A stretch of DNA of 64,000 nt from Parcubacteria group bacterium (GTDB taxonomy: Bacteria; Patescibacteriota; Minisyncoccia; Phycocordibacterales; UBA2100), in assembly GCA_943358385.1 (NCBI GenBank), contig CALRGX010000003.1:2771-66770 (forward strand), in the 5' to 3' direction. Position 1 is the first letter of the stretch; every line of letters starts with the position of its first letter. Shown here one piece after another: positions 3,918 through 39,092 of this stretch. The notes under the pieces are model-generated. The model was not told where the DNA came from. It searched no databases and saw only the letters and a list, made by a program, of their open reading frames with translations. The position numbers were made by a program, and so were the translations under genes.

Positions 3918-5177
3918 ATGAGTAAAAATATGAAGCAAACACAGCTCTTCACCAAAACAAGAAAAGACGCGCCAGCCGACGAAGTGGCCAAGAACGCGCA
4001 GCTCTTGATTCGCGCAGGATACATTCACAAAGAGATGGCCGGTGTCTATTCATACCTGCCATTGGGTTTGCGCGTGCTCAAGAAAATCGAGCAGGTCATC
4101 CGTGAAGAAATGAATAAGATTAACGGGCAGGAATTGTTTCTTTCTTCGCTTCATCCGAAAGAACGCTGGGAGGCAACCGGACGCTGGGACAGCCTGGACG
4201 TACTGTTTAAACTGAAGGACACGCTTGATCGTGAGTACGCGCTCGGTGCAACGCACGAGGAAATCATTACGCCGCTCGCGCAAGAGTACATTTCATCATA
4301 TCGCGACCTACCTTTCGCGGCGTATCAATTTCAAAATAAGTTCCGTGCTGAAGTCCGTTCGAAATCAGGCATCATGCGTGGACGCGAATTTATCATGAAA
4401 GATTTGTACTCGTTCCACGTGTCGCAGGAAGATCTCGATCAGTACTACGAGCGGGCGGTTGCGGCATACTTGCGCGTATTTGAGCGCTGTGGGCTCGGTG
4501 CACAGACATACCTTACCTATGCCAGTGGCGGTACCTTTTCAAAATACAGTCACGAATTTCAAACGCTTACTGATGCGGGGGAAGATATCATTCATCTCTG
4601 TGATACCTGCAAAGTGGCGGTAAACGAAGAAATTATTGCCGAGCAACCTGCTTGTCCGAAATGTGGCGGTGCACTTACCCCTCAAAAAGCAGCCGAGACG
4701 GGGAACATTTTCAAGCTCGGTACCAAATACTCGGCAGCCTTTAACCTCACCTTTAAAGACGCGGAAGGAAAAGAACAGCCGGTCATTATGGGTTGCTATG
4801 GGATTGGCCTGGGGCGCTTGATGGGTACTGCAGTAGAAGTGCTCTCCGATACAAAAGGAATTGTGTGGCCTCGCGAAATCGCGCCGTTTAAAGTGCACCT
4901 CATTTCGATTGCCGGTAAATCAGACGAAGCCATCAAAGAAGCAACGCGCGTATACGATGATCTGATTGAACACGGTGTGGAAGTCCTGTGGGATGATCGC
5001 GATGCACGCGCAGGAGAAAAATTCGCTGATGCTGATCTGATTGGTATCCCTTTGCGTCTGGTCGTGTCGGAACGCTCTATTGCCGAGGGTGGGTATGAAC
5101 TTACTGAGCGGAAAACAGGGCAGAGTAAATTGGTGCCCGAGAGTATGCTCCTGCAGACACTGAAATCAAACGTATGA
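3918..5177 (+). CDS. proS: Prolyl-tRNA synthetase (short form lacking an editing insertion)
   Basis: Class II aaRS motifs and a ProRS-like anticodon-binding C-terminus. ATG at 3918 (MSKNMKQTQLF). Confidence 0.92.
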   Translation: MSKNMKQTQLFTKTRKDAPADEVAKNAQLLIRAGYIHKEMAGVYSYLPLGLRVLKKIEQVIREEMNKINGQELFLSSLHPKERWEATGRWDSLDVLFKLKDTLDREYALGATHEEIITPLAQEYISSYRDLPFAAYQFQNKFRAEVRSKSGIMRGREFIMKDLYSFHVSQEDLDQYYERAVAAYLRVFERCGLGAQTYLTYASGGTFSKYSHEFQTLTDAGEDIIHLCDTCKVAVNEEIIAEQPACPKCGGALTPQKAAETGNIFKLGTKYSAAFNLTFKDAEGKEQPVIMGCYGIGLGRLMGTAVEVLSDTKGIVWPREIAPFKVHLISIAGKSDEAIKEATRVYDDLIEHGVEVLWDDRDARAGEKFADADLIGIPLRLVVSERSIAEGGYELTERKTGQSKLVPESMLLQTLKSNV

Positions 5178-7038: not shown

Positions 7039-7293
7039 ATGATACGCGCGTTTATTTCCGGAGTTGCCATGGCGAGCGTCTTTTTTGCTCCCGCATGGGT
7101 GCCACTTTTGACGGTGGGAATGTTGGCGCTGCGGTTTGCGGCATGGGAAGCAGTGTTGGTTGGTTTTCTGGTAGACCTGCTCTACGCACCTGGTGGTTTT
7201 TTCTGGGGCATTCCGATGCCTGCAACGCTTTTGATGCTGGTGGTGGTCATCGCGCTCTACCCATGGCGCACACAGTTGGCTGTCAGCCGCTGA
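7039..7293 (+). CDS. mreD: MreD-like small membrane protein
   Basis: 84-aa polytopic hydrophobic ORF immediately downstream of mreC, by position and topology. Confidence 0.45.
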   Translation: MIRAFISGVAMASVFFAPAWVPLLTVGMLALRFAAWEAVLVGFLVDLLYAPGGFFWGIPMPATLLMLVVVIALYPWRTQLAVSR

Positions 7294-7349: not shown

Positions 7350-9011
7350 ATGGCACGCTTTCGACAAGCGATGATTGATCCAGAAAATATTTTTCTGGAT
7401 TCACAAAACATGGCAGAGTTCGACACGGCCCATTTTGAAGGGCGTGTTGAAAAGCCAGTCGCTCCTTCGGCGCTCTACGCGATCGGTGTGGTGTTTTTGA
7501 TTGCGGCGGCGCTCTTTTTGTACAAGATGTTTGATTTGCAAATTGTACAGGGTGCACAATACGCGCTCGCGGCGCAGGAAAATACACTCGCATACTCACT
7601 GGTGTTTGCGGAGCGTGGCATTTTGTACGACCGCACGGGGAAGGAATTGGCATGGAACGAGCCTGGTGAATATTTTGCGCGTCGCGCGTACAGCCTGCTC
7701 CCCGGGTTGGCGCATGTATTGGGGTATGTGCAGTATCCAAAGGCTGATGGTTCTGGTTTGTGGTGGCGCACCGAATATGCGGGCATCGCGGGTGCGGAAA
7801 AGGCCTTCGACCGTGAGCTCTCGGGTATCAATGGAAAAGAAATGGTGGAGGTGGACGCACATGGTGCGGTTGCACGGGGGCACGTGGTGGAACAACCCCA
7901 AGACGGTCAATCACTTCGCTTGAGTATCGACGCAGAGGTACAAAGCAAGTTACATACGACCATGGCTGCGCACGCGGCCAACAATCGCTTTCAAGGAGGG
8001 GCAGCAGTCATCATGGATGTGCGCACCGGCGAACTTTTAGCGCTCACTAGTTTTCCTGAGTTTACCCCGCAGCCGCTCGTTGATGGTGATTCCGAGAAAG
8101 TCGCTGCCTTTGCGAATGACCCGGCGAAGCCTTTTCTTGACCGTGCCATTTCCGGCGTATATACACCAGGCTCGATTGTGAAGCCACTCTTTGCTGCCGC
8201 CGCGCTGGCTGAAGGCATCATTTCACCAGACAAATCAATTTTTAGCCCAGGCTATATCACTATCCCGAACCCATACCATCCAGAGTTACCAACGATTATG
8301 AAAGACTGGCGGGCGCACGGATGGACCACGATGCGCAAAGCAATCGAGGTATCGTCTGACGTGTATTTTTACTCGATTGGCGGTGGGTACGAAGATCAAA
8401 AAGGGCTCGGCATCACCAAGCTTGATGAATACGCGCTCCGTTTTGGACTGGGAAAAGAAACAGGCGTTCCGCTTGAAGGGGAGGTGGTGGGCACTATCCC
8501 TACGCCTGCATGGAAGAAGGAAATTTTTGGTGCTGATGAAGAATGGCGCCTAGGAGATACGTACAACACATCGATTGGGCAGTATGGATTTCAGGTGACG
8601 CCCATTCAAATGGCGCGTGCAATCGCCTCTATTGCCAATGGTGGGACGTTACTCACGCCGCAGCTGCATGCCAGCTCCACTGCGCAAGGAACTGATATTG
8701 GCATCGATGCTGCGCAACTGAAAATAATTCGTGAAGGCATGCGCCAGGCGGTTGCCGGTGACGCCGGGACTGCACGTGCGCTGAATATATCTGGTATACA
8801 CATCGCCGGTAAAACAGGTACCGCTGAATTGGGAAATCGGAAGCAGTACATGAACTCGTGGGTGGTGGGATTTTGGCCGATGGAAAATCCTCGCTACTCC
8901 TTTGCTGTGGTGTTGGAACACGCGCCTGCAGGCACGCTCTCAGGAGCTTCGCCCGGCATGCGTGGTTTTTTTGAGTGGCTCGTCGCCACAAAACCAGAGT
9001 ACGTGCAGTAA
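7350..9011 (+). CDS. mrdA: Penicillin-binding protein 2 (elongasome transpeptidase)
   Basis: SIVKP (SxxK), SDV (SxN-like) and KTGTA motifs. N-terminal TM. Directly downstream of mreBCD. Confidence 0.9.
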   Translation: MARFRQAMIDPENIFLDSQNMAEFDTAHFEGRVEKPVAPSALYAIGVVFLIAAALFLYKMFDLQIVQGAQYALAAQENTLAYSLVFAERGILYDRTGKELAWNEPGEYFARRAYSLLPGLAHVLGYVQYPKADGSGLWWRTEYAGIAGAEKAFDRELSGINGKEMVEVDAHGAVARGHVVEQPQDGQSLRLSIDAEVQSKLHTTMAAHAANNRFQGGAAVIMDVRTGELLALTSFPEFTPQPLVDGDSEKVAAFANDPAKPFLDRAISGVYTPGSIVKPLFAAAALAEGIISPDKSIFSPGYITIPNPYHPELPTIMKDWRAHGWTTMRKAIEVSSDVYFYSIGGGYEDQKGLGITKLDEYALRFGLGKETGVPLEGEVVGTIPTPAWKKEIFGADEEWRLGDTYNTSIGQYGFQVTPIQMARAIASIANGGTLLTPQLHASSTAQGTDIGIDAAQLKIIREGMRQAVAGDAGTARALNISGIHIAGKTGTAELGNRKQYMNSWVVGFWPMENPRYSFAVVLEHAPAGTLSGASPGMRGFFEWLVATKPEYVQ

Positions 9012-16150: not shown

Positions 16151-17536
16151 ATGGCGCGATACCAGCGCGCGCTGTTCTTATTTCGGCGTGATTTTAGATT
16201 GGAAGACAACACAGCACTGAATGCGGCTTTTAAGGATGCGGAAGAGGTGGTGTGTGCTTTTATCTTGGACGAGCGGCAAGTGAGTAAGCAAAATCCATAC
16301 GCGGGCGAGCACCTGCTGCAATTTATGGCAGAGAGTTTGATGGAAGTCGACGCTGAGCTGCAATTAAAAAAAGGGCGCCTGCACGTGTGGAACGGCATTG
16401 CAGAAGCAATTATTCCACGTCTCGCGCGCGAGGCCTCATGCCAGGCGGTGTATGTTAATCGTGACTACACGCCGTTTGCGCAGATGCGCGACGAAGCGAT
16501 TATGCAGGCATGTACTGCAGTCGGAGTAGTAATGCATACGTATGATGATGCTCTTTTGGTTGCCCCTGGAAAAGTACTTACGCAGAAAATAGAGCCATAC
16601 AGCGTCTTCACCCCTTTTTATCGCGCAGCAAGAACGGGGATGGTGCCGCACCCTGAAACGGCAGAGGGTAAGTACGCTGCGCTGCCAAGCGGTGCCGATG
16701 GTGGCGAGGCGCTCCTTGCACCATTCTTGCGCAACAAAATACTAGCTGCTCGCGGAGGGCGCGCAGCAGTACGCGCCGTACTCGATGATGTTGGACGACA
16801 TACACACTACAGCTATGAGCGTGACATGGTGGCGCACGCGGGTACCACGCTACTCTCGCCATACTTAAAGCACGGGTGCGTTTCAGTGCGTGAAGCGTAT
16901 TGGGCAATGAGAGAGCAGCTGCCGCACACGTATGAGCCGCTCACGCGGCAATTGTACTGGCGTGATTTTTTCACACACCTCGTGTTTTTCCATCCTGAAG
17001 TGCTGGGGAAAGCATTCAAGCCACAGTACGACCGCGTGCGATGGGACGAGCCAGGAGAAAATTTTGAACGCTGGAAGAAGGGCGAGACGGGTTTTCCAAT
17101 TGTGGATGCAGGCATGCGCCAGTTGAATGAAAGTGGGTGGATGCACAATCGCGCGCGCATGATTACTGCCAGTTTCCTTGTAAAAGATCTACACATAGAT
17201 TGGCGTGAAGGCGAGCGCTATTTTGCCACCAAACTCATCGACTACGACCCGGCAGTGAACAACGGTTCGTGGCAATGGGTAGCCGGAACAGGTGCAGATG
17301 CGGCGCCATACTTCCGCATTTTCAACCCCTGGTTGCAGCAGAAAAAATTTGATCCTGATGCTCTCTATATAAAGCGGTGGGTACCTGAGCTTGAGAGTGT
17401 GCCCATTAGTGATATTCACACATGGGACAAAAAGGCAGGCGGCCTCTTCGAGGCCGCCCTGTACCCTGCGCCCATGCTTGATCATCGCGAAGAAGCAGAA
17501 GAGGCTAAGCGCCGATTTGGTAAAGCGTTGAAGTAG
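16151..17536 (+). CDS. phr: Deoxyribodipyrimidine photolyase / cryptochrome family
   Basis: N-terminal photolyase alpha/beta domain and a C-terminal FAD-binding domain (WREGERYF...WQWVAGTGADAAPYFRIFNP). Confidence 0.9.
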   Translation: MARYQRALFLFRRDFRLEDNTALNAAFKDAEEVVCAFILDERQVSKQNPYAGEHLLQFMAESLMEVDAELQLKKGRLHVWNGIAEAIIPRLAREASCQAVYVNRDYTPFAQMRDEAIMQACTAVGVVMHTYDDALLVAPGKVLTQKIEPYSVFTPFYRAARTGMVPHPETAEGKYAALPSGADGGEALLAPFLRNKILAARGGRAAVRAVLDDVGRHTHYSYERDMVAHAGTTLLSPYLKHGCVSVREAYWAMREQLPHTYEPLTRQLYWRDFFTHLVFFHPEVLGKAFKPQYDRVRWDEPGENFERWKKGETGFPIVDAGMRQLNESGWMHNRARMITASFLVKDLHIDWREGERYFATKLIDYDPAVNNGSWQWVAGTGADAAPYFRIFNPWLQQKKFDPDALYIKRWVPELESVPISDIHTWDKKAGGLFEAALYPAPMLDHREEAEEAKRRFGKALK

Positions 17537-17603
17537 CGCACGGAATACGATAGGGTGCAGACAGAGACGGTATTGGCCGTTGGACGTTGAGGAGGAAAGA
17601 GAG

Positions 17604-18644
17604 ATGCTCGATAAACTTTTGGCAGATGCTGAGGCGCTGAGGACTGAGGTGCAGACCGATGCAGCCACGAGCCAGCAAAAACTGGCTGCTGCGTGTGCGG
17701 CTGTCCGTGCAGCAATCACAGGTGGAGAGACCACCGGCAGTCCTATCAAGGATGTGCTGTGTATGCGCGTGAGCCGTCTTGATTCCACGATGCTGGCGCA
17801 GTACGAAGCAATCGATGCGGCACTCAAAGGGAAAGTAGGGCAGTTAGTGTTGGTGGCGTTTGATGAAAGCGTGCGCACGAAGCATACGTTTACCGGCCAC
17901 GGGAACGAATACACGGTGATGCGTAAAGGTATACTGGGCGTACTTGCACGAGATGCGTTGCAGAGAAGTACGGACCTCACCAAGCACACACTATCGATCC
18001 CTACGAGCATGTTCGCCAGCCTAGGAGAGTACTCACTCACCGTGCAGCAAGGAGCGATTAGTGAAGGCTCATACTCGTTCAACTGGGGAACGTTTGTTGC
18101 AGACCCTAACGAGATGCCGTACTACCGCATGCATGAAGGGTCATGCGTGCCAAACGTTCAGGTGATCGCAGGGAATGCAGAAGTACTGGCGTACGTTGAG
18201 AAGCGCGCCTTTTCTTTGGGCTGCCTCAGCATCGACGTGGTGTTGCGTGCCAGTCTGCTCTTTCACATGAATATACCGCTCACTGATCGAATCATCGCTG
18301 CATATGAAAGCACGGTCGCCTTGGATTGCGCGCGGCTCACCGGTTTGCGTAGGGAAGCAGAATACGTCAGTGCGACCTTGGCTGACTTGCGCCGTGCTCG
18401 GCTGGAAAAGCAGCCGTTTATGCTGCTGGATCGGCAGACGATGCTCAACGCTCTAGATGCTGAAAAGTTTCAGCGCACTGAAAAGGAGCTCGTACGCCGC
18501 CTCGGCGAAATTCACACTGAAGTGGTGCGTGTGTTTGGTAACGGTGGCACGAGTAACGTTGGGTTGCTGCTCCCTTACTTCCATAGCCACCCCATCATTC
18601 CGTGGGCGCGCGGGTACATGTTGGAAAGTGAAATGAATAAGTAA
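17604..18644 (+). CDS. Hypothetical cytoplasmic protein (346 aa), no recognised domain
   Basis: GAGGAGG RBS. Clean ORF with its own terminator at 18651-18690. Confidence 0.55.
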   Translation: MLDKLLADAEALRTEVQTDAATSQQKLAAACAAVRAAITGGETTGSPIKDVLCMRVSRLDSTMLAQYEAIDAALKGKVGQLVLVAFDESVRTKHTFTGHGNEYTVMRKGILGVLARDALQRSTDLTKHTLSIPTSMFASLGEYSLTVQQGAISEGSYSFNWGTFVADPNEMPYYRMHEGSCVPNVQVIAGNAEVLAYVEKRAFSLGCLSIDVVLRASLLFHMNIPLTDRIIAAYESTVALDCARLTGLRREAEYVSATLADLRRARLEKQPFMLLDRQTMLNALDAEKFQRTEKELVRRLGEIHTEVVRVFGNGGTSNVGLLLPYFHSHPIIPWARGYMLESEMNK

Positions 18645-18650
18645 GAAAAC

Positions 18651-18690
18651 AGAGGCGGCCACGCAGTGGCCGCCTCTACCTGTTTTAATT
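18651..18690 (+). terminator. Rho-independent terminator
   Basis: agaggcggccac-gca-gtggccgcctct followed by acctgtttta. Confidence 0.65.
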
Positions 18691-18746
18691 GTGGAATGCT
18701 ACCCTGTGTGCGCGTCGTACGTGGCGCACCTATCTGCTGCATTGGG

Positions 18747-18819
18747 TCGGGGTATCGTATAGTGGTAGTACGCAAGGCTGGGGGTCTTGTAGCCCGAGTT
18801 CGATTCTCGGTACCCCGAC
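18747..18819 (+). tRNA. tRNA-Pro (anticodon GGG)
   Basis: Manual cloverleaf fold. Acceptor CGGGGTA/TACCCCG with C1:G72 and A73 typical of tRNA-Pro. D-arm with AGTGGTA loop. Anticodon loop CTGGGGG. T-arm CCGAG-TTCGATT-CTCGG. Confidence 0.85.
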
Positions 18820-18909
18820 CGAGTGCAGCGAGGGCGGGTACAGTAACCTGCCTGCGCAGGTTACGTCGAGAATCGAAGCGCCGCAGGATATGTTTGCGAG
18901 CACCACGAG
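18809..18909 (+). repeat. 101-bp direct repeat copy 1, starting inside the tRNA-Pro 3' end
   Basis: Identical to 18996-19096. Contains a gtaacctgc-ctgc-gcaggttac hairpin. Confidence 0.85.
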
Positions 18910-18995
18910 CAAACATCCGAGGCGCCGTCCGAGAACGCGAGGTCTTTTGTGAGGCCATGGGCCGAAGCAAAAGCCCGCGATTCTGGGACGATGAA

Positions 18996-19096
18996 GGTAC
19001 CCCGACCGAGTGCAGCGAGGGCGGGTACAGTAACCTGCCTGCGCAGGTTACGTCGAGAATCGAAGCGCCGCAGGATATGTTTGCGAGCACCACGAG
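18996..19096 (+). repeat. 101-bp direct repeat copy 2
   Basis: Perfect copy of 18809-18909, including the last 12 nt of tRNA-Pro (ggtaccccgacc). Confidence 0.85.
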
Positions 19097-19104
19097 CGCG
19101 CATT

Positions 19105-19148
19105 TAATTTTGTATAAAAAAGTGGTGCCCCGCGAACGTCGCGGGGCA
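19105..19148 (-). terminator. Rho-independent terminator of the NYN gene
   Basis: gtgccccgcga-acg-tcgcggggcac, followed on the minus strand by ttttttatac. Confidence 0.7.
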
Positions 19149-19169
19149 CCGAGTTGGATGGAGTACTGT

Positions 19170-19721
19170 TTATTCTTTGCGACCCCGCTCCTTGCCGAAC
19201 ACCTTCAGAAGATTGGCTAGGTCAATGAACTCGTCGGCTTGTCGCCGGAGTTCGTCAGCCGCGAACGGTGCGGCTGGGTCTATGCTCGAGACCACGATGA
19301 CCCGTCTTCCCATGTCCTGAATTGCTTCGACGAGAGGAGTGAAGTCGGCGTTGCCGCTGAAGAGAACAATCTCGTCAACGGTAGGAGCAATCGTAATCGC
19401 CTGCACTGCCAGCAGGACATCGATCGTTCCCCTCAAGCGACGGTTCCCAGAAGTGTCGCCGCGTTCCTTCGCTAGCCGGGTCACCATGGTATAACCATTG
19501 TAATCCAGCCAGTCGAGCAATGGACGAATGCTCTGCACACCGTCCTCACCCTCCTCAACGGTCGTGAAATAGTACGACCGAAGAAGGTGGCTTCTTGCTC
19601 GGGCCCACAGCGTCAGCTTCCGGTAGTCAACATCCATGCCGAACGCTCTCGCGCAGGAATAAGTGTTGGCTCCGTCGATGAGTACAGCGCTTTTAGGCTT
19701 GTACTCTACTTTGTCGGCCAT
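19170..19721 (-). CDS. NYN/LabA-like domain protein (putative RNase)
   Basis: AVLIDGANTY and GNADFTPLVEA...VIVVS motifs typical of LabA/NYN (PIN-like) domains. Confidence 0.7.
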   Translation of the reverse strand: MADKVEYKPKSAVLIDGANTYSCARAFGMDVDYRKLTLWARARSHLLRSYYFTTVEEGEDGVQSIRPLLDWLDYNGYTMVTRLAKERGDTSGNRRLRGTIDVLLAVQAITIAPTVDEIVLFSGNADFTPLVEAIQDMGRRVIVVSSIDPAAPFAADELRRQADEFIDLANLLKVFGKERGRKE

Positions 19722-19947
19722 GCCGACCTCCATCGCCGCTTCAATACCACCCTGGGAGGTGGCCACCTCCACAGATGTGGAGGCCGCAGACAGCGGCAAA
19801 CCTTACGTCATATGGATATTATACCACATATTAGAAATAACACAATGGACCAAAAAAGGCGTGTGCACAAAGCTTTTTTGGCACGTTTCCTCGCATGGTA
19901 CGCTGGGGGGCGTGTCTAGCTACGTTCATCAACTCCGTGACTTCCTG

Positions 19948-22059
19948 ATGAAGTCGACCGCCCCGCAGGTCTTGATCTTCTCGAGCGCCGCACTGTACTT
20001 CCTCTTGGAATTTATTGTTGGGAAGTATCTGCTGCCGATTTTCGGTGGCTCGTGGGCAGTGTGGATCACGGTGCTGTCTTTTTTCACCACTGCCTTACTG
20101 CTGGGGTATCTGTATGCGCATTGGCTCATTCAAAAAAATGCACAGACGCAGCGGCAGTGGCATCGCGCATTGCTTTTGTTGGCTGCGCTTTGTGTCGGTA
20201 GTGTCGGCGCGGCTGTTGCTTTGGGCGCCAACATTCCCGCATACTTCGGCGTCGGCAACTTACCACCAGCTCTGGAAATTATTCTGCTACTCCTCTGCAC
20301 CGTTGGCATCCCTGCAATCGCCCTAGCTGCCACCAATACCTTGGTACAGCACTGGAGCTATGAAAACGAAGGCACGTATCGCCTGTACGCACTTTCGAAT
20401 GCAGGATCATTTGTGGGGCTACTCAGCTATCCGTTTCTGGTGGAGCCGCTCCTTGCGGTCCCTACACAAGCCGCCTTGTGGGCACTAGGTTTTATCTTCT
20501 TTGCCTACCAGTTGCGTCGCTTTATACAAAAAGATGCGCACGCAGTAGCAACGCACGTACACAGTGAAAAAGTGTCTATTGGTACCAAATTGCTGTGGCT
20601 CACTCTGGCCGCATTCCCCGCGCTTCTGATGGTCGCCACTACCGCGCAAATCACACACGTCGTTGCCCCTATCCCGCTTCTCTGGATGGTGCCGCTTGGT
20701 TTGTATTTGCTTTCATACGTGCTCGCGTTTTCAGGGAGAGGTGGGGGGAGGGTGGCCACCGGGATGTTTCTTGCGGCGGCATGGGGGTCTCTCTACCTTC
20801 TTGATGCAGGGGTCACATCGTTTATGGAGCGGCTCGGGGTGTACCTTTCGCTTCTGTTCTTCGCGTCCTTGGTTCTCCATGCTCATCTATTTGCTGCACG
20901 GCCAAAAGGTGCGCAGCTTTCACTCTTTTACTTCTATGTATCACTCGGTGGCGCCCTGGGCACACTGCTGATTTCTTTTGGTGCACCGCTGGCCTTCAAT
21001 GATCTGTGGGAGTTTCCCATCGCGGTGCTCATAGGGGTGATACTTTCCACCGTATTCTTCCTTTACTCTTTGGTAGGGCCGAAATTTATTTGGCCAGTAC
21101 GCATCCTTGCCGTCGGCTTCGTCTTTATTGCAGTGAATCAATTCTACGTATTCACCCAGGCTGAATTTGGCTTTGAGGGGACCGAGCGCAACTTCTACGG
21201 CATCACGATGGTATACAAAACCGACGACAAGGTCTCGCTCTATCACGAGGAAACGTTGCACGGTTCGCAATTTACGGATGCTGAAAATTCGAGAAAGCCA
21301 ACGACGTACTATTCGTTGCATGGGGCAGTCGGGCGCTCGTTTGGCTACGAGCGTGTGGTGGCGCATCCTGAGGGTCCGCTTAATGTGGCGATTATAGGAC
21401 TAGGAACAGGTACGGTCGCTGCATATTGCCGTCCAGGAGACTCATTTGTGTACTACGAAATAGATCGACGCATGGAGCGTATTGCGCGCAACGATTTCAC
21501 GTATTTGTCGCACTGTCCGGGGGTCGAAGTGCGCATTGGCGACGCACGTCGTGTGATGGAATTGGAGGTAGATGCAGGAAAAAAACAAATGTATGACATC
21601 CTGATCATCGATGCGTTCAACGACGACAACATTCCCGCACATTTGGTGACCGTTGAGGCGCTCGAGACCTACGCACAGCTGATGCGGCACGACGACAGTA
21701 TCATCGCGTTCCATACATCGAATCGTTATCTAGAGCTGGCGCCGCTCGTAGTGTCTCTTGCCAAAGAAAAAGGTTTTGCGGCAGTCGTCATAGATGGTGG
21801 CGGTGAGGCAGATGTGGGCGGCACTTCATCTCAGTGGGTACTGCTCTCGAAAAACACCGATGTATTCAAGCGTGAGCTCTTTCTAGAAAATTCAGACGAA
21901 CTACCGACGTATCTGCCGCGCCCGTGGACCGACACCTACTCAAATATTCTCCCTATCATTTCCGTACCCACCTCTTTTGCAGACATAATTGGCGAGAGAA
22001 TATTTTTTCCTACTCCATGGCCGCTGTATGCATCCTCGACCCTTGATACGGCAGAATAA
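19948..22059 (+). CDS. Membrane-anchored spermidine-synthase-like protein (multi-TM N-domain plus aminopropyltransferase-like C-domain), paralog A
   Basis: About 10 TM helices. C-terminal GLGTGTVAAY...DILIIDAFNDDNIPAHL spermidine-synthase-fold motifs (COG4262-like). Confidence 0.75.
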   Translation: MKSTAPQVLIFSSAALYFLLEFIVGKYLLPIFGGSWAVWITVLSFFTTALLLGYLYAHWLIQKNAQTQRQWHRALLLLAALCVGSVGAAVALGANIPAYFGVGNLPPALEIILLLLCTVGIPAIALAATNTLVQHWSYENEGTYRLYALSNAGSFVGLLSYPFLVEPLLAVPTQAALWALGFIFFAYQLRRFIQKDAHAVATHVHSEKVSIGTKLLWLTLAAFPALLMVATTAQITHVVAPIPLLWMVPLGLYLLSYVLAFSGRGGGRVATGMFLAAAWGSLYLLDAGVTSFMERLGVYLSLLFFASLVLHAHLFAARPKGAQLSLFYFYVSLGGALGTLLISFGAPLAFNDLWEFPIAVLIGVILSTVFFLYSLVGPKFIWPVRILAVGFVFIAVNQFYVFTQAEFGFEGTERNFYGITMVYKTDDKVSLYHEETLHGSQFTDAENSRKPTTYYSLHGAVGRSFGYERVVAHPEGPLNVAIIGLGTGTVAAYCRPGDSFVYYEIDRRMERIARNDFTYLSHCPGVEVRIGDARRVMELEVDAGKKQMYDILIIDAFNDDNIPAHLVTVEALETYAQLMRHDDSIIAFHTSNRYLELAPLVVSLAKEKGFAAVVIDGGGEADVGGTSSQWVLLSKNTDVFKRELFLENSDELPTYLPRPWTDTYSNILPIISVPTSFADIIGERIFFPTPWPLYASSTLDTAE

Positions 22060-22074
22060 TGGAGCATCAGCTAC

Positions 22075-24144
22075 ATGTCTACTATGAAACAGATAATACA
22101 ATTCTTTAAACGCTTTAGTCCTGCGGAGACACTGATCTTCTCGAGCGCCGCACTGTACTTCCTCTTGGAATTTATTGTTGGGAAGTATCTGCTGCCGATT
22201 TTCGGTGGCTCGTGGGCAGTGTGGATCACGGTGCTGTCTTTTTTTACCGTCGCCCTTTTGTTGGGGTATGTGTATGCGCATTGGCTCACCAAGCGAACAG
22301 TTGCGGTACAACAAAAAATGCACCGGACGCTTCTTCTGGTTGCACTCGTGCCTGCGGCGCTCGTAGGTATAGCGATCATGAGTGGAGCGAGCGTGCCTGC
22401 ATACTTCGGCGTCGGCAACTTACCACCAGCTCTGGAAATTATTCTGCTACTCCTCTGCACCGTTGGCATCCCTGCAATCGCCCTAGCTGCCACCAATACC
22501 TTAGTACAGCACTGGAGCTATGAAAACGAAGGCACGTATCGCCTGTACGCACTTTCGAATGCAGGATCATTTGTGGGGCTCCTCAGCTATCCGTTTCTGG
22601 TGGAGCCGCTTTTTTCCGTGCGGGTGCAAGCGGTATTGTGGGTCATCGCATTTGTGTACTTTGTATATGCCATGCGGCACTTCATCCTGCATACCGCGGC
22701 CATAGAAGTGGCAAAAGATGAACATCACACACCCGTTTCAGTCTCACGGCGCCTCACGTGGCTTGGACTCGCCGCATTCCCCGCGCTTCTGATGGTCGCC
22801 ACTACCGCGCAAATCACACACGTCGTTGCCCCTATCCCGCTTCTCTGGATGGTGCCGCTTGGTTTGTATTTGCTTTCATACGTGCTCGCGTTTTCAGGGA
22901 GAGGTGGGGGGAAAGTCGTCATGACGCTCTTCGTTCTCTCTGCAGGAGGGTCGTTGTACCTACTGGACGCGAGCGTGCATGTGTACATGTTGCGCTTGTT
23001 TGTGTACTTGCCGCTTCTTTTCTTTGCATCACTCTCGATTCATGCTCTTTTGTATCGACTACGCCCTCATGGTGGGGCGCTGTCGTCTTTTTATCTGTAT
23101 CTGTCCCTTGGCGGGGCATTGGGCACGCTTTTGGTTTCTTTTGGTGCGCCGATCATTTTCAACGAGCTCTGGGAGTTTCCGCTTGCAGTGTTTGCCGCAT
23201 TTTTGGGAGGCTGTGCGCTCCTCTTGTACAGTGCATCTGCACACCTGTCGTCATGGGTGCCGCGTGTACTCATGGTGGCAGTGGCCTTTGGAGCGGGGCA
23301 GTTTTTCTATGCATTTACGCAGGAATATTTTGGTTTTGAAGGAGTGGAAAGAAATTTCTACGGCATCACCACGGTGGTAGATGGCCCTGACAAAGTGACC
23401 CTGTTGCACGAGCAAACGGTGCATGGCACACAGCTTAAGTTTGATGAGCGCGTACCTACCGCGTACTTTACGCTCCACAGCGCCATTGGAAGAACGTTTG
23501 GCTATCAGCGTGTGGTGGCACACCCCGATCGGCCGCTTTCGGTGGGCGTGATTGGATTGGGCGCAGGCACCATGGCGGCGTACTGTCGACCAGGAGACAC
23601 GTTTGTATATTACGAAATCGACGCACGCATGGAGCGCATTGCGCGCAACGATTTCACCTACCTATCGCACTGCCCCGGGATAGAAGTGCGCATCGGTGAT
23701 GGACGACGCTTGATGGAGCAAGAAGTGGCGGCGGGGCAGACGGGCGTCTACGATGTGCTGATGGTTGATGCATTCAACGACGACAACATTCCTGCACACT
23801 TGGTAACGGTAGAAGCGCTGGATGTCTACGGCAAACTATTGCGCGAGAAAGACAGTATCATCGTTTTTCAAGCATCGAATCGTTACATTGCCCTTGCGCC
23901 TTTGGTTATCGCACTCGCCAAAGAGCGTGGCTATTTCGCGGTAGTGATGGAAGGGGATGTGAGCATGGACACTGCGTCACTCACTTCGCAATACGTGCTT
24001 CTTTCGAAAGATCCGCACGTGTTTAGCCAGAAACTGTTCCTTGAGGCATCGGTGGAGCTGCCGAAGTATTTACCGACTGCATGGACTGATACCTACTCAA
24101 ACATTCTGCCGCTACTCACGCTGCCGAGCCCTTTTCGGGATTAA
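22075..24144 (+). CDS. Membrane-anchored spermidine-synthase-like protein, paralog B
   Basis: Same architecture as A. Three DNA blocks nearly identical to A (22127-22250, 22396-22620, 22770-22912). Confidence 0.75.
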   Translation: MSTMKQIIQFFKRFSPAETLIFSSAALYFLLEFIVGKYLLPIFGGSWAVWITVLSFFTVALLLGYVYAHWLTKRTVAVQQKMHRTLLLVALVPAALVGIAIMSGASVPAYFGVGNLPPALEIILLLLCTVGIPAIALAATNTLVQHWSYENEGTYRLYALSNAGSFVGLLSYPFLVEPLFSVRVQAVLWVIAFVYFVYAMRHFILHTAAIEVAKDEHHTPVSVSRRLTWLGLAAFPALLMVATTAQITHVVAPIPLLWMVPLGLYLLSYVLAFSGRGGGKVVMTLFVLSAGGSLYLLDASVHVYMLRLFVYLPLLFFASLSIHALLYRLRPHGGALSSFYLYLSLGGALGTLLVSFGAPIIFNELWEFPLAVFAAFLGGCALLLYSASAHLSSWVPRVLMVAVAFGAGQFFYAFTQEYFGFEGVERNFYGITTVVDGPDKVTLLHEQTVHGTQLKFDERVPTAYFTLHSAIGRTFGYQRVVAHPDRPLSVGVIGLGAGTMAAYCRPGDTFVYYEIDARMERIARNDFTYLSHCPGIEVRIGDGRRLMEQEVAAGQTGVYDVLMVDAFNDDNIPAHLVTVEALDVYGKLLREKDSIIVFQASNRYIALAPLVIALAKERGYFAVVMEGDVSMDTASLTSQYVLLSKDPHVFSQKLFLEASVELPKYLPTAWTDTYSNILPLLTLPSPFRD

Positions 24145-30878: not shown

Positions 30879-30950
30879 GGCCCTATCGTCTAGCGGCTAG
30901 GACACGGCCTTCTCAAGGCTGTAACCGGGGTTCGATTCCCCGTAGGGTCA
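30879..30950 (+). tRNA. tRNA-Glu (anticodon CTC)
   Basis: Cloverleaf with acceptor GGCCCTA/TAGGGTC, D-arm GTCT-AGCGGCTA-GGAC, anticodon loop TTCTCAA and T-arm CGGGG-TTCGATT-CCCCG. Resembles E. coli tRNA-Glu. Confidence 0.85.
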
Positions 30951-32476
30951 CATTCAGAAACTTGGTCGGAAGTAAGCGCGAAATCTGGGCGCGCCGAAGG
31001 CGCGCTGTATGGCGAGGGAATGAAATCCGTCTTGCGGGCGCGGGCGAATTCGGAGGGCGGGCAAAATGAGATCGAAATAGTTTTGTCTTTTAGCGCGGGG
31101 TTCGTTCCGAAGGAACGCAGAAAATCTCGCATTTCGTGGAGATTTTCACTGGTTGCCAGAAACCCCGCGCGTTTTGAATCCAAAATCCACTTCCGCAGGG
31201 GTTCGACCCAATTCTTTCTCTCGGCTCGGGCAGATGAAGATTTTGCTTGAAGCGAGCTCCTTTGACGCATGAGCGCGTCCTTTTTCGTTAGATATATGTC
31301 GCGCTCAATATCGTGGTTTAAGTACAAATCCACGAGTGCGTCGAGCTTCGCTTCAAGCGTTTTCAAATCTTCCTTCATCTGCCCGAGCCGATTTCCCGAA
31401 GCGTGAATTTCGTCATGCTCAAAAACCTCTACTTTTTTGAGCATATAATTTGCCCACGCTTCGGGAAGCGACACTGTTTGAAGCTGTTCCTTTACTTGGA
31501 GAGCGAGCGCATCTTCCTGCAAATATCCTTGACCACATTTTCCTTTCTTTTTCGTACAACGATAATAGCGATACCGACCGCCCATTTTTCCAGTACACCA
31601 TTGAGCAGTTATCATCGAGCCACATTCCCCACAACGAAAAAGTCCGGTGAAAGGAAAATTGTGAGATATTTTGCTATGCCTCGGATGCGCTCGCACGAGA
31701 AGTTGTTTCTGCACAGCTTCAAACAGTGTCGGAGAAAGAATTGGCGCAAAGCTTCCGGGAAAATATTCCTCACGATGCTTGGTAAATCCCAAGTATGCAC
31801 GATTCGTCAAGATCCTTTTCACGGAAGCTTTGCCAAGGGGCGTTCCGGACTTTTGAGCAACACCGTGGTCAGCCAAAAATTGCGACAACGAAATGAGGGT
31901 ATGTGTTCCTTTTACATACTCGCCAAACGCGCGCACAATAATTTTAGATTTCACCGGATTAGGTTCGATATTTCGTGTGGTGGGGTTGTTCACATACCCG
32001 AATGGAGCGCGGGTTAGCCATTCTCCGCGTCGCAATTTTTGGCGCATACCTCGCTCAACATTTTGCTTCAAATTGTCGGAATAATATTTGCTCTGTCCGA
32101 ACGCCACTTGAAGCATAAATAGCCCCTGCGGAGTGGGTTCAAACCAAAATGTCGGAAAACGCAAAGAGATGATTTTTGAAGTGTCTACGGCGTAAATGAT
32201 GCGTCCTCCGTCAATACTATTTCTCGCTAGTCGGTCAGGATGCCATGCGAGGATGCCAACATTGCCTAACTTATCAATTTTGAGCATCATTTCGCCGAAC
32301 ACTTCTCGTCCCGGACTCTTTGCGCTTTTCGACTCTTGAAATTCCTCAAGAATTTCAAGATTTTCTCTGCTCGCAAATTCACGAAGTTCCACAAGTTGAG
32401 CTGGAATACTCATCACTTGCTTATCGTCATCTTCGGTGCTCTTGCGAGCATAGAGAAAATATTTTGGTTTGTTCAT
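30890..32476 (-). CDS. Large serine recombinase (resolvase catalytic domain, recombinase domain, zinc-ribbon, coiled-coil)
   Basis: YARKSTEDDDKQVMSIPAQ with catalytic Ser, and a DRLAR motif. CGECGS...YYRCTKKKGKCGQGY zinc ribbon. The last ~57 codons are encoded by IR-A plus the antisense of tRNA-Glu. Confidence 0.85.
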   Translation of the reverse strand: MNKPKYFLYARKSTEDDDKQVMSIPAQLVELREFASRENLEILEEFQESKSAKSPGREVFGEMMLKIDKLGNVGILAWHPDRLARNSIDGGRIIYAVDTSKIISLRFPTFWFEPTPQGLFMLQVAFGQSKYYSDNLKQNVERGMRQKLRRGEWLTRAPFGYVNNPTTRNIEPNPVKSKIIVRAFGEYVKGTHTLISLSQFLADHGVAQKSGTPLGKASVKRILTNRAYLGFTKHREEYFPGSFAPILSPTLFEAVQKQLLVRAHPRHSKISHNFPFTGLFRCGECGSMITAQWCTGKMGGRYRYYRCTKKKGKCGQGYLQEDALALQVKEQLQTVSLPEAWANYMLKKVEVFEHDEIHASGNRLGQMKEDLKTLEAKLDALVDLYLNHDIERDIYLTKKDALMRQRSSLQAKSSSARAERKNWVEPLRKWILDSKRAGFLATSENLHEMRDFLRSFGTNPALKDKTISISFCPPSEFARARKTDFIPSPYSAPSARPDFALTSDQVSECDPTGNRTPVTALRRPCPSR

Positions 32477-32646
32477 AAATAGTTTTTGGATTCAAAAAAA
32501 GAAACTATTAAGATCTCATTTCTTGCTTTCCGCCCGCCCTCCGAATTCGCCCGCGCCCGCAAGACGGATTTCATTCCCTCGCCATACAGCGCGCCTTCGG
32601 CGCGCCCAGATTTCGCGCTTACTTCCGACCAAGTTTCTGAATGTGA
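30948..32646 (-). mobile_element. Large serine recombinase gene bounded by perfect 115-bp inverted repeats (IR-A), abutting the tRNA-Glu 3' end
   Basis: 30948-31062 is the exact reverse complement of 32532-32646. The left IR starts in the last 3 nt of tRNA-Glu. Confidence 0.8.
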
Positions 32647-32866
32647 TCTAATCATATCCTTTGCGCGAACCTTTTTCGAGAGCTAATCGCACGCTCCGCG
32701 TGCGTGGTGGCTTTAGACCAATGCGTACGCTCCGATTGCGTGGTGACTCTCACAATCCGACCAGCGCCTCGCGGACTCGGCGCTCCGCCCTCGCCCCGTT
32801 CCGCCTTTCCATACTTATTTTTTCGCGGGGGGGGATTTTTTTAAAATTGAATGGGCGGAAACGGGG
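32644..32866 (+). repeat. IR-B left copy (223 bp)
   Basis: Reverse complement of 38872-39092. Internal ~22-bp subrepeats (acgctccg..tgcgtggtg x2). G8 and T7 homopolymer tracts (the right copy has C6 and A7). Confidence 0.85.
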
Positions 32867-32872
32867 CGAGGG

Positions 32873-33298: not shown

Positions 33299-33359
33299 GA
33301 GGGTGTCGCTAGTTATTAGTAAAATGTATTATAATAATAGCACAGCTTAAATACGTCCT

Positions 33360-35891: not shown

Positions 35892-35940
35892 ATTCTCCTA
35901 TATCAAGATATACTAACAGTATACTTCCTTTCACAAACGA

Positions 35941-38871: not shown

Positions 38872-39092
38872 CCCCGTTTCCGCCCATTCAATTTTAAAAA
38901 AATCCCCCCGCGAAAAAATAAGTATGGAAAGGCGGAACGGGGCGAGGGCGGAGCGCCGAGTCCGCGAGGCGTTGGTCGGATTGTGAGAGTCACCACGCAA
39001 TCGGAGCGTACGCATTGGTCTAAAGCCACCACGCACGCGGAGCGTGCGATTAGCTCTCGAAAAAGGTTCGCGCAAAGGATATGATTAGATCA
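38872..39092 (-). repeat. IR-B right copy (221 bp)
   Basis: Reverse complement of 32644-32866 except for homopolymer tract lengths. Confidence 0.85.

What the first reader, a model, noticed from the sequence alone, without database searches (positions are those of the whole stretch)
18747..19148. tRNA-Pro(GGG) 3' end duplicated as part of a perfect 101-bp direct repeat only 187 bp away
Copy 1 (18809-18909) begins with the last 12 nt of the tRNA (ggtaccccgacc). Copy 2 (18996-19096) is identical, separated by an 86-bp unique spacer. Each copy holds a 9-bp-stem hairpin (gtaacctgc-ctgc-gcaggttac). Duplication of a tRNA 3' end is the classic attL/attR signature of an integrase-mediated insertion. 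Here the would-be element is only 86 bp and no integrase is adjacent. Options are a decayed integrative-element scar, a hotspot after excision and re-integration, or a tandem structure with another role, for example a second acceptor-stem-mimicking transcript.
Basis: seen in the sequence. Interest (0 to 1): 0.6.

Follow-up and report, generated by a model that had tools for sequence, protein, structure and literature searches.

The report
Tandem structured trailer module after tRNA-Pro
The perfect repeat after this tRNA-Pro gene is real, but it is two tandem copies of a conserved, strongly folding module found after tRNA genes in several Patescibacteria, and I found no sign of a recent integrase insertion.

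Summary
tRNA-Pro(GGG) lies at 18748-18818, and a perfect 102-nt direct repeat (18809-18910 and 18996-19097) is separated by 85 nt. The "element" is a ~175-nt hairpin-rich module, here called E. It follows tRNA-Pro in related Patescibacteria (L038, L008, L026, L009/L035). Diverged copies follow tRNA-Pro(CGG), tRNA-Pro(GGG) and tRNA-Arg in more distant ones.

Each module ends in a short copy of the tRNA from T-loop G57 to its 3' end. Its 5' part is the reverse complement of the tRNA's T-loop, T-stem and acceptor 3' strand. Together they fold into a three-way junction that is kept by compensatory changes: 94.9% of cells paired and 24 of 34 pairs doubly changed.

The window has one full copy plus an old truncated copy. 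In relatives that truncated copy is decayed and carries a 56-nt insertion. Here the full copy has overwritten it, which explains the perfect identity. Two independent assemblies of the same strain lack exactly one 187-bp unit, so the copy number varies within this strain.

No integrase, larger element, phage match or Rfam family was found. The most likely role is a structured RNA co-transcribed with the tRNA, but that is inferred. A non-autonomous mini-element remains a serious rival.

The parts
18651..18677 (+). Terminator hairpin of the upstream 346-aa gene. It marks the start of the tRNA-Pro transcription unit.
   Evidence: Terminator scan. It is conserved in L038, L008, L026 and L009.
18736..18757 (+). 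5' leader plus the tRNA 5' acceptor strand. It is complementary to 18808-18829 and to the same sequence in copy 2 (18998-19016).
   Evidence: Inverted repeats I2 and I4. In the minimum-free-energy (MFE) fold of 18700-19160 it pairs with the second copy.
18748..18818 (+). tRNA-Pro(GGG). CCA is not encoded; the gene is followed by CCG.
   Evidence: ARAGORN; Rfam RF00005, 57.5 bits.
18802..18820 (+). tRNA segment from T-loop G57 to the 3' end plus CC (GATTCTCGGTACCCCGACC). This is the part that is re-copied at the end of each module. The perfect repeat starts at 18809.
   Evidence: In L008, L026 and L019 the downstream copy starts at the same T-loop position.
18809..18910 (+). Perfect repeat, copy 1 (102 nt): the tRNA end (12 nt) plus the first 90 nt of module E.
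   Evidence: the repeat finder D1.
18821..18995 (+). Full module E (175 nt), made of loop, acceptor mimic, hairpin 1, E-box, hairpin 2 and domain III.
   Evidence: 98.2% identical to the L038 module over 166 nt, against 85-91% in the flanks. RNA fold of 18800-19000: -104.2 kcal/mol, z = -8.5.
18836..18841 (+). Acceptor mimic GGGTAC. It pairs with GTACCC of the tRNA acceptor 3' strand or of its downstream copy.
   Evidence: Inner stem. It co-varies with the tRNA: GGATGC pairs with GCATCC in L008 and L026.
18843..18864 (+). Hairpin 1 (9-bp stem, CTGC loop). It branches from the junction.
   Evidence: Compensatory variants occur in L008 and L026; 99% of cells are paired across 11 copies.
18867..18877 (+). 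E-box CGAGAATCGAA, the exact reverse complement of the tRNA T-loop plus T-stem 3' strand (18799-18809).
   Evidence: 3 matches against 0.05 expected. It follows the cognate tRNA in L008/L026 (CGGGAATCGAA) and in L025 (CGGGAATTGAA against T-loop TTCAATT).
18886..18918 (+). Hairpin 2 (GGATATGTTTGC...GCAAACATCC). It spans the end of repeat copy 1, so it is complete only in the first copy.
   Evidence: It is conserved with compensatory changes in L008, L026 and L035.
18911..18995 (+). The 'unique spacer' S (85 nt). It is the 3' half of module E.
18927..18989 (+). Domain III, a long hairpin. GTCCGAGAACGCG pairs with CGCGATTCTGGGAC (a degenerate second E-box and T-arm pair), with an inner CTTTTG/CAAAAG stem.
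   Evidence: Folds. Conserved in L038.
18996..19097 (+). Perfect repeat, copy 2. It consists of the tRNA-end copy (18996-19007) plus E' (19008-19097), a 3'-truncated old module copy homogenised to E.
   Evidence: The orthologous E' in L038 and L008 ends at the same point but is decayed and carries a shared 56-nt insertion in the hairpin-1 loop.
19124..19150 (-). Terminator of the convergent NYN-domain gene. It is the first strong hairpin after the module array. In L026 it follows the last tRNA-end copy almost directly.
19170..19637 (-). NYN (LabA-like) domain gene, the conserved right-hand neighbour. I do not claim it is part of the element.
   Evidence: Pfam PF01936; synteny.

Best explanation
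The locus is a short tandem array of a conserved, highly structured tRNA trailer module, which I call E.

Architecture (shown):
- Each module starts directly after the tRNA 3' end.
- Each module ends with a short direct copy of the tRNA, running from T-loop G57 to a few bases past the discriminator.
- The 5' part of the module is the reverse complement of the tRNA's T-loop, T-stem 3' strand and acceptor 3' strand, interrupted by a 9-bp hairpin.
- A tRNA-end copy plus the module therefore folds into a three-way junction, followed by further hairpins.

State in the window (shown): there is one full module (18821-18995) and an old, 3'-truncated one (19008-19097).

Origin of the perfect repeat (the overwriting is inferred from the comparison; the missing unit is shown): the full copy has overwritten the truncated copy by gene conversion or unequal crossing-over. 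The same recombination continues, because some cells of the same strain have lost exactly one 187-bp unit.

Function (inferred): the array is transcribed together with tRNA-Pro. The module acts as a structured RNA whose pairing with the tRNA-end sequence builds a helix like the acceptor and T stems of a tRNA. That helix could guide RNase P or RNase Z processing, or compete with folding of the tRNA.

Origin of the first tRNA-end copy (open): it could come from recombination at the T-loop or from decay of a neighbouring tRNA-Pro gene.
For: Tandem architecture in relatives:
- L038: full E, then a tRNA-end copy, then a decayed E'.
- L008: the same arrangement, with a different E subtype.
- L026: 164-bp units in tandem, with at least three tRNA-end copies, the last joined directly to the flank.
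- The L009 contig ends right at the start of the module, and the L035 contig begins inside it.

Concerted evolution: E' of L038 and L008 shares a 56-nt insertion and the same truncation point. The window's E' lacks the insertion and equals E exactly.

Copy-number polymorphism: L002/L043 and L045 are 100% identical to the window apart from one missing 187-bp unit. L045 comes from a different sample and is a k141 assembly.

Structure:
- z = -8.5 for the + strand.
- The same three-way junction is predicted separately in window, L038, L008, L026 and L025. L019 keeps the outer stem only.
- RNAalifold on 4 copies gives no broken pair in the junction helices and 10 pairs with compensatory changes.
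- Across 11 copies, 94.9% of cells are paired, 24 of 34 pairs have changes on both sides, 0 of 500 shuffles reach this, and slid controls give 28-50%.

Family:
- A covariance model trained only on the window clade finds untrained modules after tRNA-Pro(CGG) in L018 (41 bits) and L025 (35 bits), and after tRNA-Arg in L018 (29 bits).
- The E-box follows the cognate tRNA, including the rare T-loop variant TTCAATT in L025.

Constraint:
- E is 98% identical between window and L038, while the flanks are 85-91%.
- E is 94-100% identical between L008 and L026, while the flanks are 75-87%.
- Insertions sit in loops.

Transcription: the module has the same orientation as the tRNA, with no terminator between tRNA and module. 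The + strand folds better than the - strand in 5 of 7 units.
Against: - There are no expression data, so transcription and processing are inferred.
- Helices 1-3 are almost purely Watson-Crick, with very few G-U pairs. That fits a DNA-level or single-stranded-DNA structure as well as an RNA one.
- One-copy strains keep only the truncated module, so a complete module is dispensable at least in the short term.
- L039 and L040 have tRNA-Pro(GGG) and no module, so it is not essential to tRNA-Pro.
- The distal copy decays in L038 and L008, so the duplication itself is not selected.
- The E subtype is incongruent with the flank similarity: L008 carries the L026 type next to its tRNA. This is easier to explain by transfer than by vertical descent.
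- The alignment used for the covariation counts was fitted to the model structure and holds few independent lineages.
Confidence: 0.5

Rival explanations
1. E is a non-autonomous miniature integrative element. It inserts site-specifically at the T-loop and 3' end of tRNA-Pro genes using a recombinase encoded elsewhere. It carries its own copy of the tRNA end so that the tRNA stays intact. Its internal complement of the target may let a single strand fold into a mimic of the double-stranded target site, as in CTX phage or integron attC sites. Tandem copies arise from repeated insertion or from unequal crossover.
For: - In L008, L026 and L019 the direct repeats begin at the same T-loop position (TTC^GATT). 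L015 and L020 carry insertions at that same point, and the window and L038 keep a degenerate copy from there.
- L019 and L031 form a filled/empty pair with the same tRNA.
- L008 carries the L026-type module next to its tRNA although its flanks are closer to the window.
- The module sits after different tRNAs in different genomes: Pro-GGG, Pro-CGG and Arg.
- Foreign tRNA-Pro 3' fragments lie downstream of tRNA-Pro in L015 and L022.
- The helices are purely Watson-Crick.
- Copy number varies within one strain.
Against: - No integrase is next to any of the loci examined.
- The only recombinase in the window is a large serine recombinase 12 kb away, at tRNA-Glu.
- No autonomous relative or phage carries the module.
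- A circle of 164-187 bp is very small for double-strand site-specific recombination.
- The ends of E are not inverted repeats of each other.
- Variation in copy number needs only homologous recombination between 102-bp repeats.
Confidence: 0.25
2. The repeat is an inert scar. A prophage or island once integrated into tRNA-Pro through a tyrosine integrase and was then almost completely deleted, leaving attL, 85 bp and attR.
For: Duplication of a tRNA 3' end is the classic signature of such integration, and partial tRNA genes commonly arise this way (PMC9897764). Small genomes with strong deletion bias could shrink an element quickly (my own inference).
Against: - The sequence between the repeats is a conserved family with the same architecture in at least five lineages, and a model not trained on them finds it.
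- It keeps its helices through compensatory changes.
- It is more conserved than the flanking genes.
- Independent decay would not converge on the same 100-200-nt structure.
- The repeat extends 90 nt beyond the tRNA into the module, which is not what an att core looks like.
- No larger variant exists in any relative.
Confidence: 0.08
3. The structure is the remnant of a tandem tRNA-Pro gene array. The module is an ordinary inter-tRNA spacer, and the downstream tRNA-end copy is what is left of a second tRNA-Pro gene that lost positions 1-56. It has no function of its own.
For: In L031 and L018 a spacer of the same build lies between tRNA-Val and a complete tRNA-Pro(CGG). It has a box complementary to the upstream tRNA's 3' end, then an AGCCGGAGC motif, then hairpins. 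Patescibacteria cluster Val, Pro(CGG) and Pro(GGG) genes in varying order.
Against: - The recurrent, precise boundary at T-loop position 56/57 in several lineages is not expected from random deletion.
- The tRNA-end copy and the E-box stay matched to the cognate tRNA.
- A junk spacer would not keep 95% pairing with 24 doubly changed pairs.
- This reading would explain the origin of the module but not its conservation.
Confidence: 0.12
4. The repeat, or the one-copy variant, is an assembly artefact.
For: Short tandem repeats can be collapsed or expanded by short-read assemblers, and several contigs break in or near this region (L009, L035).
Against: The two-copy form is identical in the window, L001 and L003/L044. 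The one-copy form occurs in L002/L043 and L045. L044 and L045 are both contigs named k141 from different samples, and a k of 141 exceeds the 102-bp repeat. Relatives have the same architecture with different sequence.
Confidence: 0.03

Closest known systems
attL/attR duplications of tRNA 3' ends by integrases, and integrase-less att-flanked remnants (CIMEs)
   Same: There is a direct repeat of the tRNA gene from the T-loop to the 3' end, with the intact tRNA on the left. Filled and less-filled variants coexist. Units occur in tandem.
   Different: The unit is only 164-208 bp. No integrase or autonomous relative was found. The interior is a conserved folded module that contains the reverse complement of the target. 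In the window the perfect repeat extends 90 nt past the tRNA because two module copies were homogenised.
Functional RNAs derived from tRNA 3' trailers or spacers (for example 3'ETS-leuZ of E. coli; from my own knowledge)
   Same: The sequence lies directly downstream of a tRNA in the same orientation. It has no terminator of its own before it and has strong predicted structure.
   Different: No expression data exist here. The module is repeated and bounded by tRNA-end copies, and it pairs with the tRNA's own 3' third. That is not a described feature of those RNAs.
Structured intergenic repeat families such as REP/BIME and ERIC (from my own knowledge)
   Same: The units are small and hairpin-rich, occur in tandem or in several copies, and are conserved across related genomes. 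The related 'X module' is dispersed in L018, L031, L032 and L023.
   Different: The family is tied to tRNA 3' ends, and part of its sequence is dictated by the neighbouring tRNA.
Folded single-strand recombination sites: integron attC and the CTX phage attP(+) (from my own knowledge)
   Same: An imperfect palindrome folds so that one strand rebuilds a double-stranded copy of a recombination target. Here the tRNA-end copy plus the E-box and mimic reproduce the T-arm and acceptor duplex of the tRNA gene. The pairs are almost all Watson-Crick.
   Different: No IntI or Xer-type recombinase association has been shown, and there is no evidence of single-stranded intermediates. This is a structural analogy only.
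tRNA-like structures: the tmRNA tRNA-like domain and mascRNA-type mimics (from my own knowledge)
   Same: In the fold of E plus the downstream tRNA-end copy, the mimic and that copy form an acceptor-like stem that ends in the discriminator A plus CC.
   Different: There is no T-loop and no D- or anticodon-like arm of normal size. Neither ARAGORN nor the Rfam tRNA model recognises it.

Membership tests
Integrase-mediated integrative element (attL/attR at a tRNA gene) | Direct repeat of the tRNA 3' portion bounding the insert | tested here: met
   GGTACCCCGACC occurs at 18809 and 18996. Longer copies from T-loop G57 occur in L008, L026 and L019.
Integrase-mediated integrative element (attL/attR at a tRNA gene) | Integrase or recombinase gene inside or next to the insert | tested here: not met
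   The neighbours are a photolyase, an orphan 346-aa protein, an NYN protein and membrane proteins. None of the called neighbouring genes in the syntenic loci carries a recombinase Pfam family. The only recombinase in the window is a serine recombinase at 30890-32476, beside tRNA-Glu.
Integrase-mediated integrative element (attL/attR at a tRNA gene) | Cargo-sized element between the repeats in this genome or in relatives | tested here: not met
   The insert is 85 nt unique here. Units are 164-208 bp in relatives. No repeat partner was found at kb distance in about 25 tRNA-Pro(GGG) loci.
Integrase-mediated integrative element (attL/attR at a tRNA gene) | Matching attP in a phage or plasmid | tested here: not met
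   Four scans of IMG/VR with module patterns gave nothing, or one chance hit in coding DNA.
Integrase-mediated integrative element (attL/attR at a tRNA gene) | Empty site in close relatives | tested here: inconclusive
   One-copy variants of the same strain exist, but they still keep a truncated module. In L026 the last tRNA-end copy joins the flank directly. L039 and L040 lack the module but are distant.
Non-autonomous att-flanked element (CIME-like) | att repeats without a recombination module, related to an autonomous element using the same site | tested here: inconclusive
   Repeats without an integrase are present. No autonomous relative was found in the collections searched. Mobilisation in trans cannot be tested here.
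MITE (miniature inverted-repeat transposable element) | Terminal inverted repeats and a short target-site duplication | tested here: not met
   No inverted repeat joins the two ends of E. The flanking repeat is 12-24 nt or more of tRNA sequence, not a 2-10-bp duplication.
Any described RNA family (Rfam 15) | Covariance-model match | tested here: not met
   Scans at E-value up to 1 of window 17000-21000 and of L026, L025, L019 and L038 found only tRNAs and weak unrelated hits, and none overlaps a module.
Structured RNA under selection | Helices conserved through compensatory base changes | tested here: met
   94.9% of cells are paired, 24 of 34 pairs have changes on both sides, 0 of 500 shuffles reach this, and slid controls give 28-50%. 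RNAalifold finds 10 compensatory pairs in 4 copies. Caveats: the lineages are few and the alignment was fitted to the model.
Structured RNA under selection | Transcribed and accumulating as RNA | not testable with these tools
   No expression data. The only support is the same orientation as the tRNA and the lack of an intervening terminator.
Diversity-generating retroelement (template and variable repeats) | Reverse transcriptase nearby, and repeats that differ at adenines within a coding target | tested here: not met
   The repeats are identical and non-coding, and there is no reverse transcriptase among the neighbours.
Folded single-strand recombination site (attC or CTX-like) | Associated IntI or XerCD-type recombinase and single-stranded substrate | not tested
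   Only the structural analogy was seen. No recombinase association was examined beyond the window.

The most novel reading that the evidence does not exclude
E represents an undescribed family of tRNA-linked modules in Patescibacteria. Each module carries the reverse complement of the 3' third of its own tRNA together with a fresh copy of that tRNA end. Two readings fit. In one it is a cis-acting RNA that mimics or sequesters the acceptor/T-arm helix and so controls maturation of tRNA-Pro. In the other it is a self-templating mini-element whose folded single strand imitates its tRNA target site. Either would be a new way of coupling a small element to a tRNA gene.
Probability: 0.3. Interest if true: 0.75.

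Novelty: new variant of a known kind. Interest (0 to 1): 0.55.

Why it matters
Duplicated tRNA 3' ends are routinely read as footprints of integrases. This case shows a different cause. A small, conserved, strongly folding module is built partly from the reverse complement of the neighbouring tRNA. It multiplies and shrinks by recombination within a single strain.

Patescibacteria have tiny genomes with little non-coding DNA. A non-coding module that is kept, co-varies with its tRNA and is absent from Rfam is therefore a good candidate for a new functional RNA or a new kind of miniature mobile element.

It also matters in practice. Island-finding tools that key on tRNA-end repeats would mislabel such loci, and the repeats break short-read assemblies at tRNA-Pro.

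Tried and rejected
Searches that gave nothing useful:
- Relatives through the adjacent 354-aa ORF (the 346-aa gene read from an upstream start) in genome contigs: no confirmed hit. That protein has only three homologues in the large protein database.
- Exact-pattern scans of viral contigs with the hairpin, the E-box/hairpin-2 motif, the tRNA-end plus module start, and the family motif: nothing, or one chance hit inside a gene.
- The single metagenome scan: one chance match in coding DNA (L033) and one tRNA-Pro with only a weak module-like start (L034).
- Rfam at permissive thresholds: no family.
- Four literature searches: no description of such a module. They returned only general work on partial tRNA genes.

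Explanations considered and rejected:
- Plain tandem duplication. The sequence after copy 2 is not the spacer, so the layout is repeat-spacer-repeat and not a repeated 187-bp unit.
- CRISPR-like array. A 102-nt repeat occurs only twice in the window.
- Diversity-generating retroelement. The repeats are identical and there is no reverse transcriptase.
- Protein-coding. The 184-aa ORF at 18666-19220 runs across the tRNA and was called as a gene in some assemblies. I treat it as spurious.
- A retrovirus-like primer-binding site for tRNA-Pro. The complement is interrupted, lacks the 3' terminal bases, and there is no reverse transcriptase.
- Action of the serine recombinase at 30.9-32.5 kb. The module junction shows no palindromic half-sites, and tRNA-Glu has no repeat partner in the window.
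- NYN gene homologues as a route to more loci. They gave only very short contigs (L035, L037) or a non-syntenic locus (L036).
Full report
**1. The observation**

ARAGORN places tRNA-Pro(GGG) at 18748-18820 and Rfam at 18748-18818. The repeat finder reports a 100% identical direct repeat of 102 nt at 18809-18910 and 18996-19097, 187 bp apart. The spacer is 85 nt (18911-18995).

Copy 1 begins with GGTACCCCGACC, the end of the acceptor stem, the discriminator A and two C's. Each copy holds the 9-bp hairpin GTAACCTGC/GCAGGTTAC. A 21-mer from the repeat start is expected 0.00 times by chance. The structure is identical in two other assemblies, L001 and L003.

**2. Organism and surroundings**

The tRNA body matches 23 loci in genome contigs, and nearly all of them are Patescibacteria (CPR) MAGs. 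Syntenic relatives are labelled Paceibacterota or Pacebacteria.

The neighbours are a photolyase, an orphan 346-aa gene, the tRNA, a convergent NYN-domain gene and two large paralogous membrane proteins. None is a recombinase. The upstream gene ends in a terminator at 18651-18677. The next terminator-like hairpin, at 19124-19150, belongs to the NYN gene on the other strand. Nothing separates the tRNA from the repeats.

**3. Population variation**

Exact-protein look-ups gave further assemblies of the same strain.
- L001 and L003/L044 have two copies.
- L002/L043 and L045 have one copy. They lack exactly 187 bp and are otherwise 100% identical over 3.7-21 kb.
- L044 and L045 are contigs named k141 from different samples. 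A k of 141 exceeds the 102-bp repeat, so collapse by the assembler is unlikely.

Copy number therefore differs within what is otherwise a single strain.

**4. Relatives show a module**

I call the sequence after the tRNA "E".
- L038 (flanks 85-91% identical) has the tRNA, then E, then GGTACCTCGACC, then E'. Its E is 98% identical to the window's over 166 nt and carries an extra 21-nt mini-hairpin in a loop. Its E' is visibly decayed: a 56-nt insertion sits in the hairpin-1 loop, the E-box is mutated, and it is truncated at ...CAGGAG (CACGAG in the window and L008).
- L008 (flanks 78-85%) has the tRNA, a second subtype of E, a tRNA-end copy that starts at T-loop G57, and an E' with the same 56-nt insertion and the same truncation point.
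- L026 has 164-bp units in tandem, with at least three tRNA-end copies around an assembly gap. The last copy joins almost directly to the NYN terminator, which shows what a module-free junction looks like.
- The L009 contig ends right at the start of the module. The L035 contig, from the same sample, starts inside a copy that still has a complete hairpin 2.
- More distant syntenic genomes, L039 and L040, have tRNA-Pro(GGG) without any module.

The two-copy layout is therefore older than the window's lineage, and the distal copy is a relic. In the window the relic lacks the 56-nt insertion and equals the first 90 nt of E exactly. The simplest account is recent gene conversion or unequal crossing-over. 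That process also explains the 102-bp perfect identity and the one-copy variants.

**5. Anatomy of the module**

The 5' part of E is the reverse complement of the tRNA's 3' third.
- The window has GGGTAC (18836-18841) and CGAGAATCGAA (18867-18877). The reverse complement of the tRNA 3' third is GTCGGGGTAC-CGAGAATCGAA.
- Hairpin 1 is inserted between these two pieces.
- The E-box is an exact 11-mer match to the T-loop plus T-stem, with 3 matches against 0.05 expected.

A tRNA-end copy plus E therefore folds into a three-way junction.
- The outer stem has 11 bp, from the T-loop and T-stem 3' strand paired with the E-box.
- The inner stem has 6-7 bp, from the acceptor 3' strand paired with the mimic.
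- Hairpin 1 forms the branch.

Hairpin 2 follows the junction. It spans the end of repeat copy 1, so only the first copy has it whole. After it comes a long hairpin, domain III, that fills the "spacer".

The energies are extreme. The + strand gives -104.2 kcal/mol for 201 nt with z = -8.5, and the - strand gives -94.3 with z = -6.0.

In silico, the transcript tRNA-E-copy prefers a fold in which the tRNA's own 3' third pairs with E and the tRNA 5' strand pairs with the downstream copy. That fold scores -132.8 kcal/mol against -119.3 when the parts are folded apart. This is a prediction only.

**6. Conservation of structure**

RNAalifold on the four tRNA-proximal copies gives no broken pair in the junction helices or hairpin 2, and 10 pairs with compensatory changes.
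- Hairpin 1 reads GTAACCTGC in the window, GCAACGTGC in L008 and GCAATGTGC in L026, each with the matching 3' arm.
- The E-box and the mimic follow the tRNA of their own genome.

On 11 copies aligned with a covariance model, 94.9% of cells pair and 24 of 34 pairs have changes on both sides. No shuffle out of 500 reaches this, and slid controls give 28-50%. The caveats are few independent lineages and an alignment fitted to the model.

All three insertions seen lie in loops or junctions. Helices 1-3 are almost purely Watson-Crick, so these data cannot tell RNA from single-stranded DNA.

**7. A wider family**

Model R1 was trained only on the window clade. It finds three modules it was not trained on:
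- after tRNA-Pro(CGG) in L018, at 41 bits;
- after tRNA-Pro(CGG) in L025, at 35 bits;
- after tRNA-Arg(CCG) in L018, at 29 bits.

L025's module has the E-box CGGGAATTGAA, which matches its own tRNA's unusual T-loop TTCAATT. It ends in a copy of that tRNA's 3' end.

L019 has a shorter module and a tRNA-end copy after tRNA-Pro(GGG). L031 has the same tRNA and no module.

The 3' half of the L019 module belongs to a dispersed hairpin repeat, the "X module". It also lies upstream of tRNA genes in L018, L031, L032 and L023. In L031 and L018 the spacer after tRNA-Val likewise begins with the complement of that tRNA's 3' end.

No Rfam family matches any module, and four literature searches found no description.

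**8. What it is not**

- No integrase is adjacent. No neighbouring gene in the window or among those called in the syntenic loci has a recombinase domain.
- There is no cargo-sized variant and no repeat partner at kb distance in about 25 tRNA-Pro(GGG) loci.
- There is no phage or viral counterpart.
- The repeat runs 90 nt past the tRNA only because two module copies are homogenised.
- Independent decay of islands would not converge on the same folded 100-200-nt unit in several lineages.
- A large serine recombinase lies 12 kb away at tRNA-Glu, but nothing links it to this site.

**9. Best explanation and rivals**

Shown:
- a tandem array of a conserved structured module bounded by tRNA-end copies;
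- concerted evolution between copies;
- ongoing gain or loss of one unit.

Inferred:
- the module is transcribed with tRNA-Pro and works as RNA;
- its pairing with the tRNA-end sequence builds an acceptor/T-like helix that could direct RNase P or RNase Z, or compete with tRNA folding.

The main rival is a non-autonomous mini-element that inserts at the T-loop.
- For it: the recurrent boundary at TTC^GATT, the L019/L031 filled/empty pair, the module appearing after different tRNAs, and the incongruent subtype in L008. L008's E is 94-100% identical to L026's while their flanks are 75-87% identical.
- Against it: no recombinase partner or free form was found.

The inert-scar, tRNA-array-remnant and assembly-artefact readings are less likely. 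The reasons are given with each rival.

**10. Verdict**

The module family appears undescribed, but it sits between known kinds: tRNA-end repeats, tRNA trailers and structured intergenic repeats. I rate it a new variant of a known kind, with moderate to high interest. The function is unproven.

Noticed in passing
window 30879-32476 and about 31000-38400: A large serine recombinase (528 aa; Resolvase, Recombinase and Zn_ribbon_recom domains) lies on the - strand, and its 3' end overlaps tRNA-Glu(CTC) at 30879-30951. It is followed by a low-GC block (46% against 52-55%). This is probably an island integrated at tRNA-Glu. No repeat of the tRNA-Glu 3' end occurs elsewhere in the window.
   Followed up: partly
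window 32679-32748 and 38988-39057: Two 70-bp segments, each made of two 34-nt sub-repeats, are inverted copies of each other: the outer sub-repeats match exactly and the inner ones at one mismatch. They bracket about 6.3 kb that carries FAD-oxidase, GDPD, Lnb_N and PLD-domain genes. This may be an invertible or transposon-like segment inside the low-GC block.
   Followed up: no
window 19663-22059 and 22075-24144: Two adjacent large membrane-protein genes are paralogues (about 71% nucleotide identity) with no Pfam match. The pair is conserved in L008 and L038.
   Followed up: no
window 17604-18644: The 346-aa gene between the photolyase and tRNA-Pro is an orphan. It has only three homologues in the 5.8-billion-protein database, and it is absent from the closest relative L038, where the photolyase is followed directly by the same terminator and tRNA leader.
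   Followed up: partly
This suggests horizontal acquisition next to tRNA-Pro.
   Followed up: no
L008 9228-9284 and L038 6772-6825: A 56-nt insertion that itself forms a hairpin (GATTTTCA...TGAAAATC) sits in the loop of hairpin 1 of the distal module copy in two species. L038 also has a 21-nt CCCCCC/GGGGGG mini-hairpin inserted in a loop of both copies. Small hairpin insertions appear to target loops.
   Followed up: partly
L018 682-810 and 2707-2770; L031 about 4490-4542; L032 about 3002; L023 about 3595: A dispersed hairpin repeat, the 'X module' (...CGAGGCGGGGTCGCG-AAATTTC...GAAATT-ATGCGTGACCACAAA), occurs several times. It often lies just upstream of tRNA genes and once as a tandem pair away from any tRNA. 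It may be a tRNA promoter or leader cassette, or a REP-like element.
   Followed up: partly
L015 about 7040-7290, L020 about 1460-1580, L022 about 7790-7830: Other Patescibacteria carry tRNA-Pro 3' fragments downstream of tRNA-Pro(GGG). Some come from a different tRNA-Pro variant. Two have a shared 19-nt insertion (TCCTCCMGAGGCGGACAGG) exactly at T-loop position 56/57.
   Followed up: no
L019 about 750-878: The tRNA-Val gene region carries hairpin-rich insertions in the D-loop and a duplicated 5' part.
   Followed up: no
L026 3960-4059: A run of N in this public MAG falls inside the tandem module array, so its true copy number is unknown. The L009 and L035 contigs also break in or at the edge of the module, which shows that these repeats fragment short-read assemblies.
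   Followed up: no
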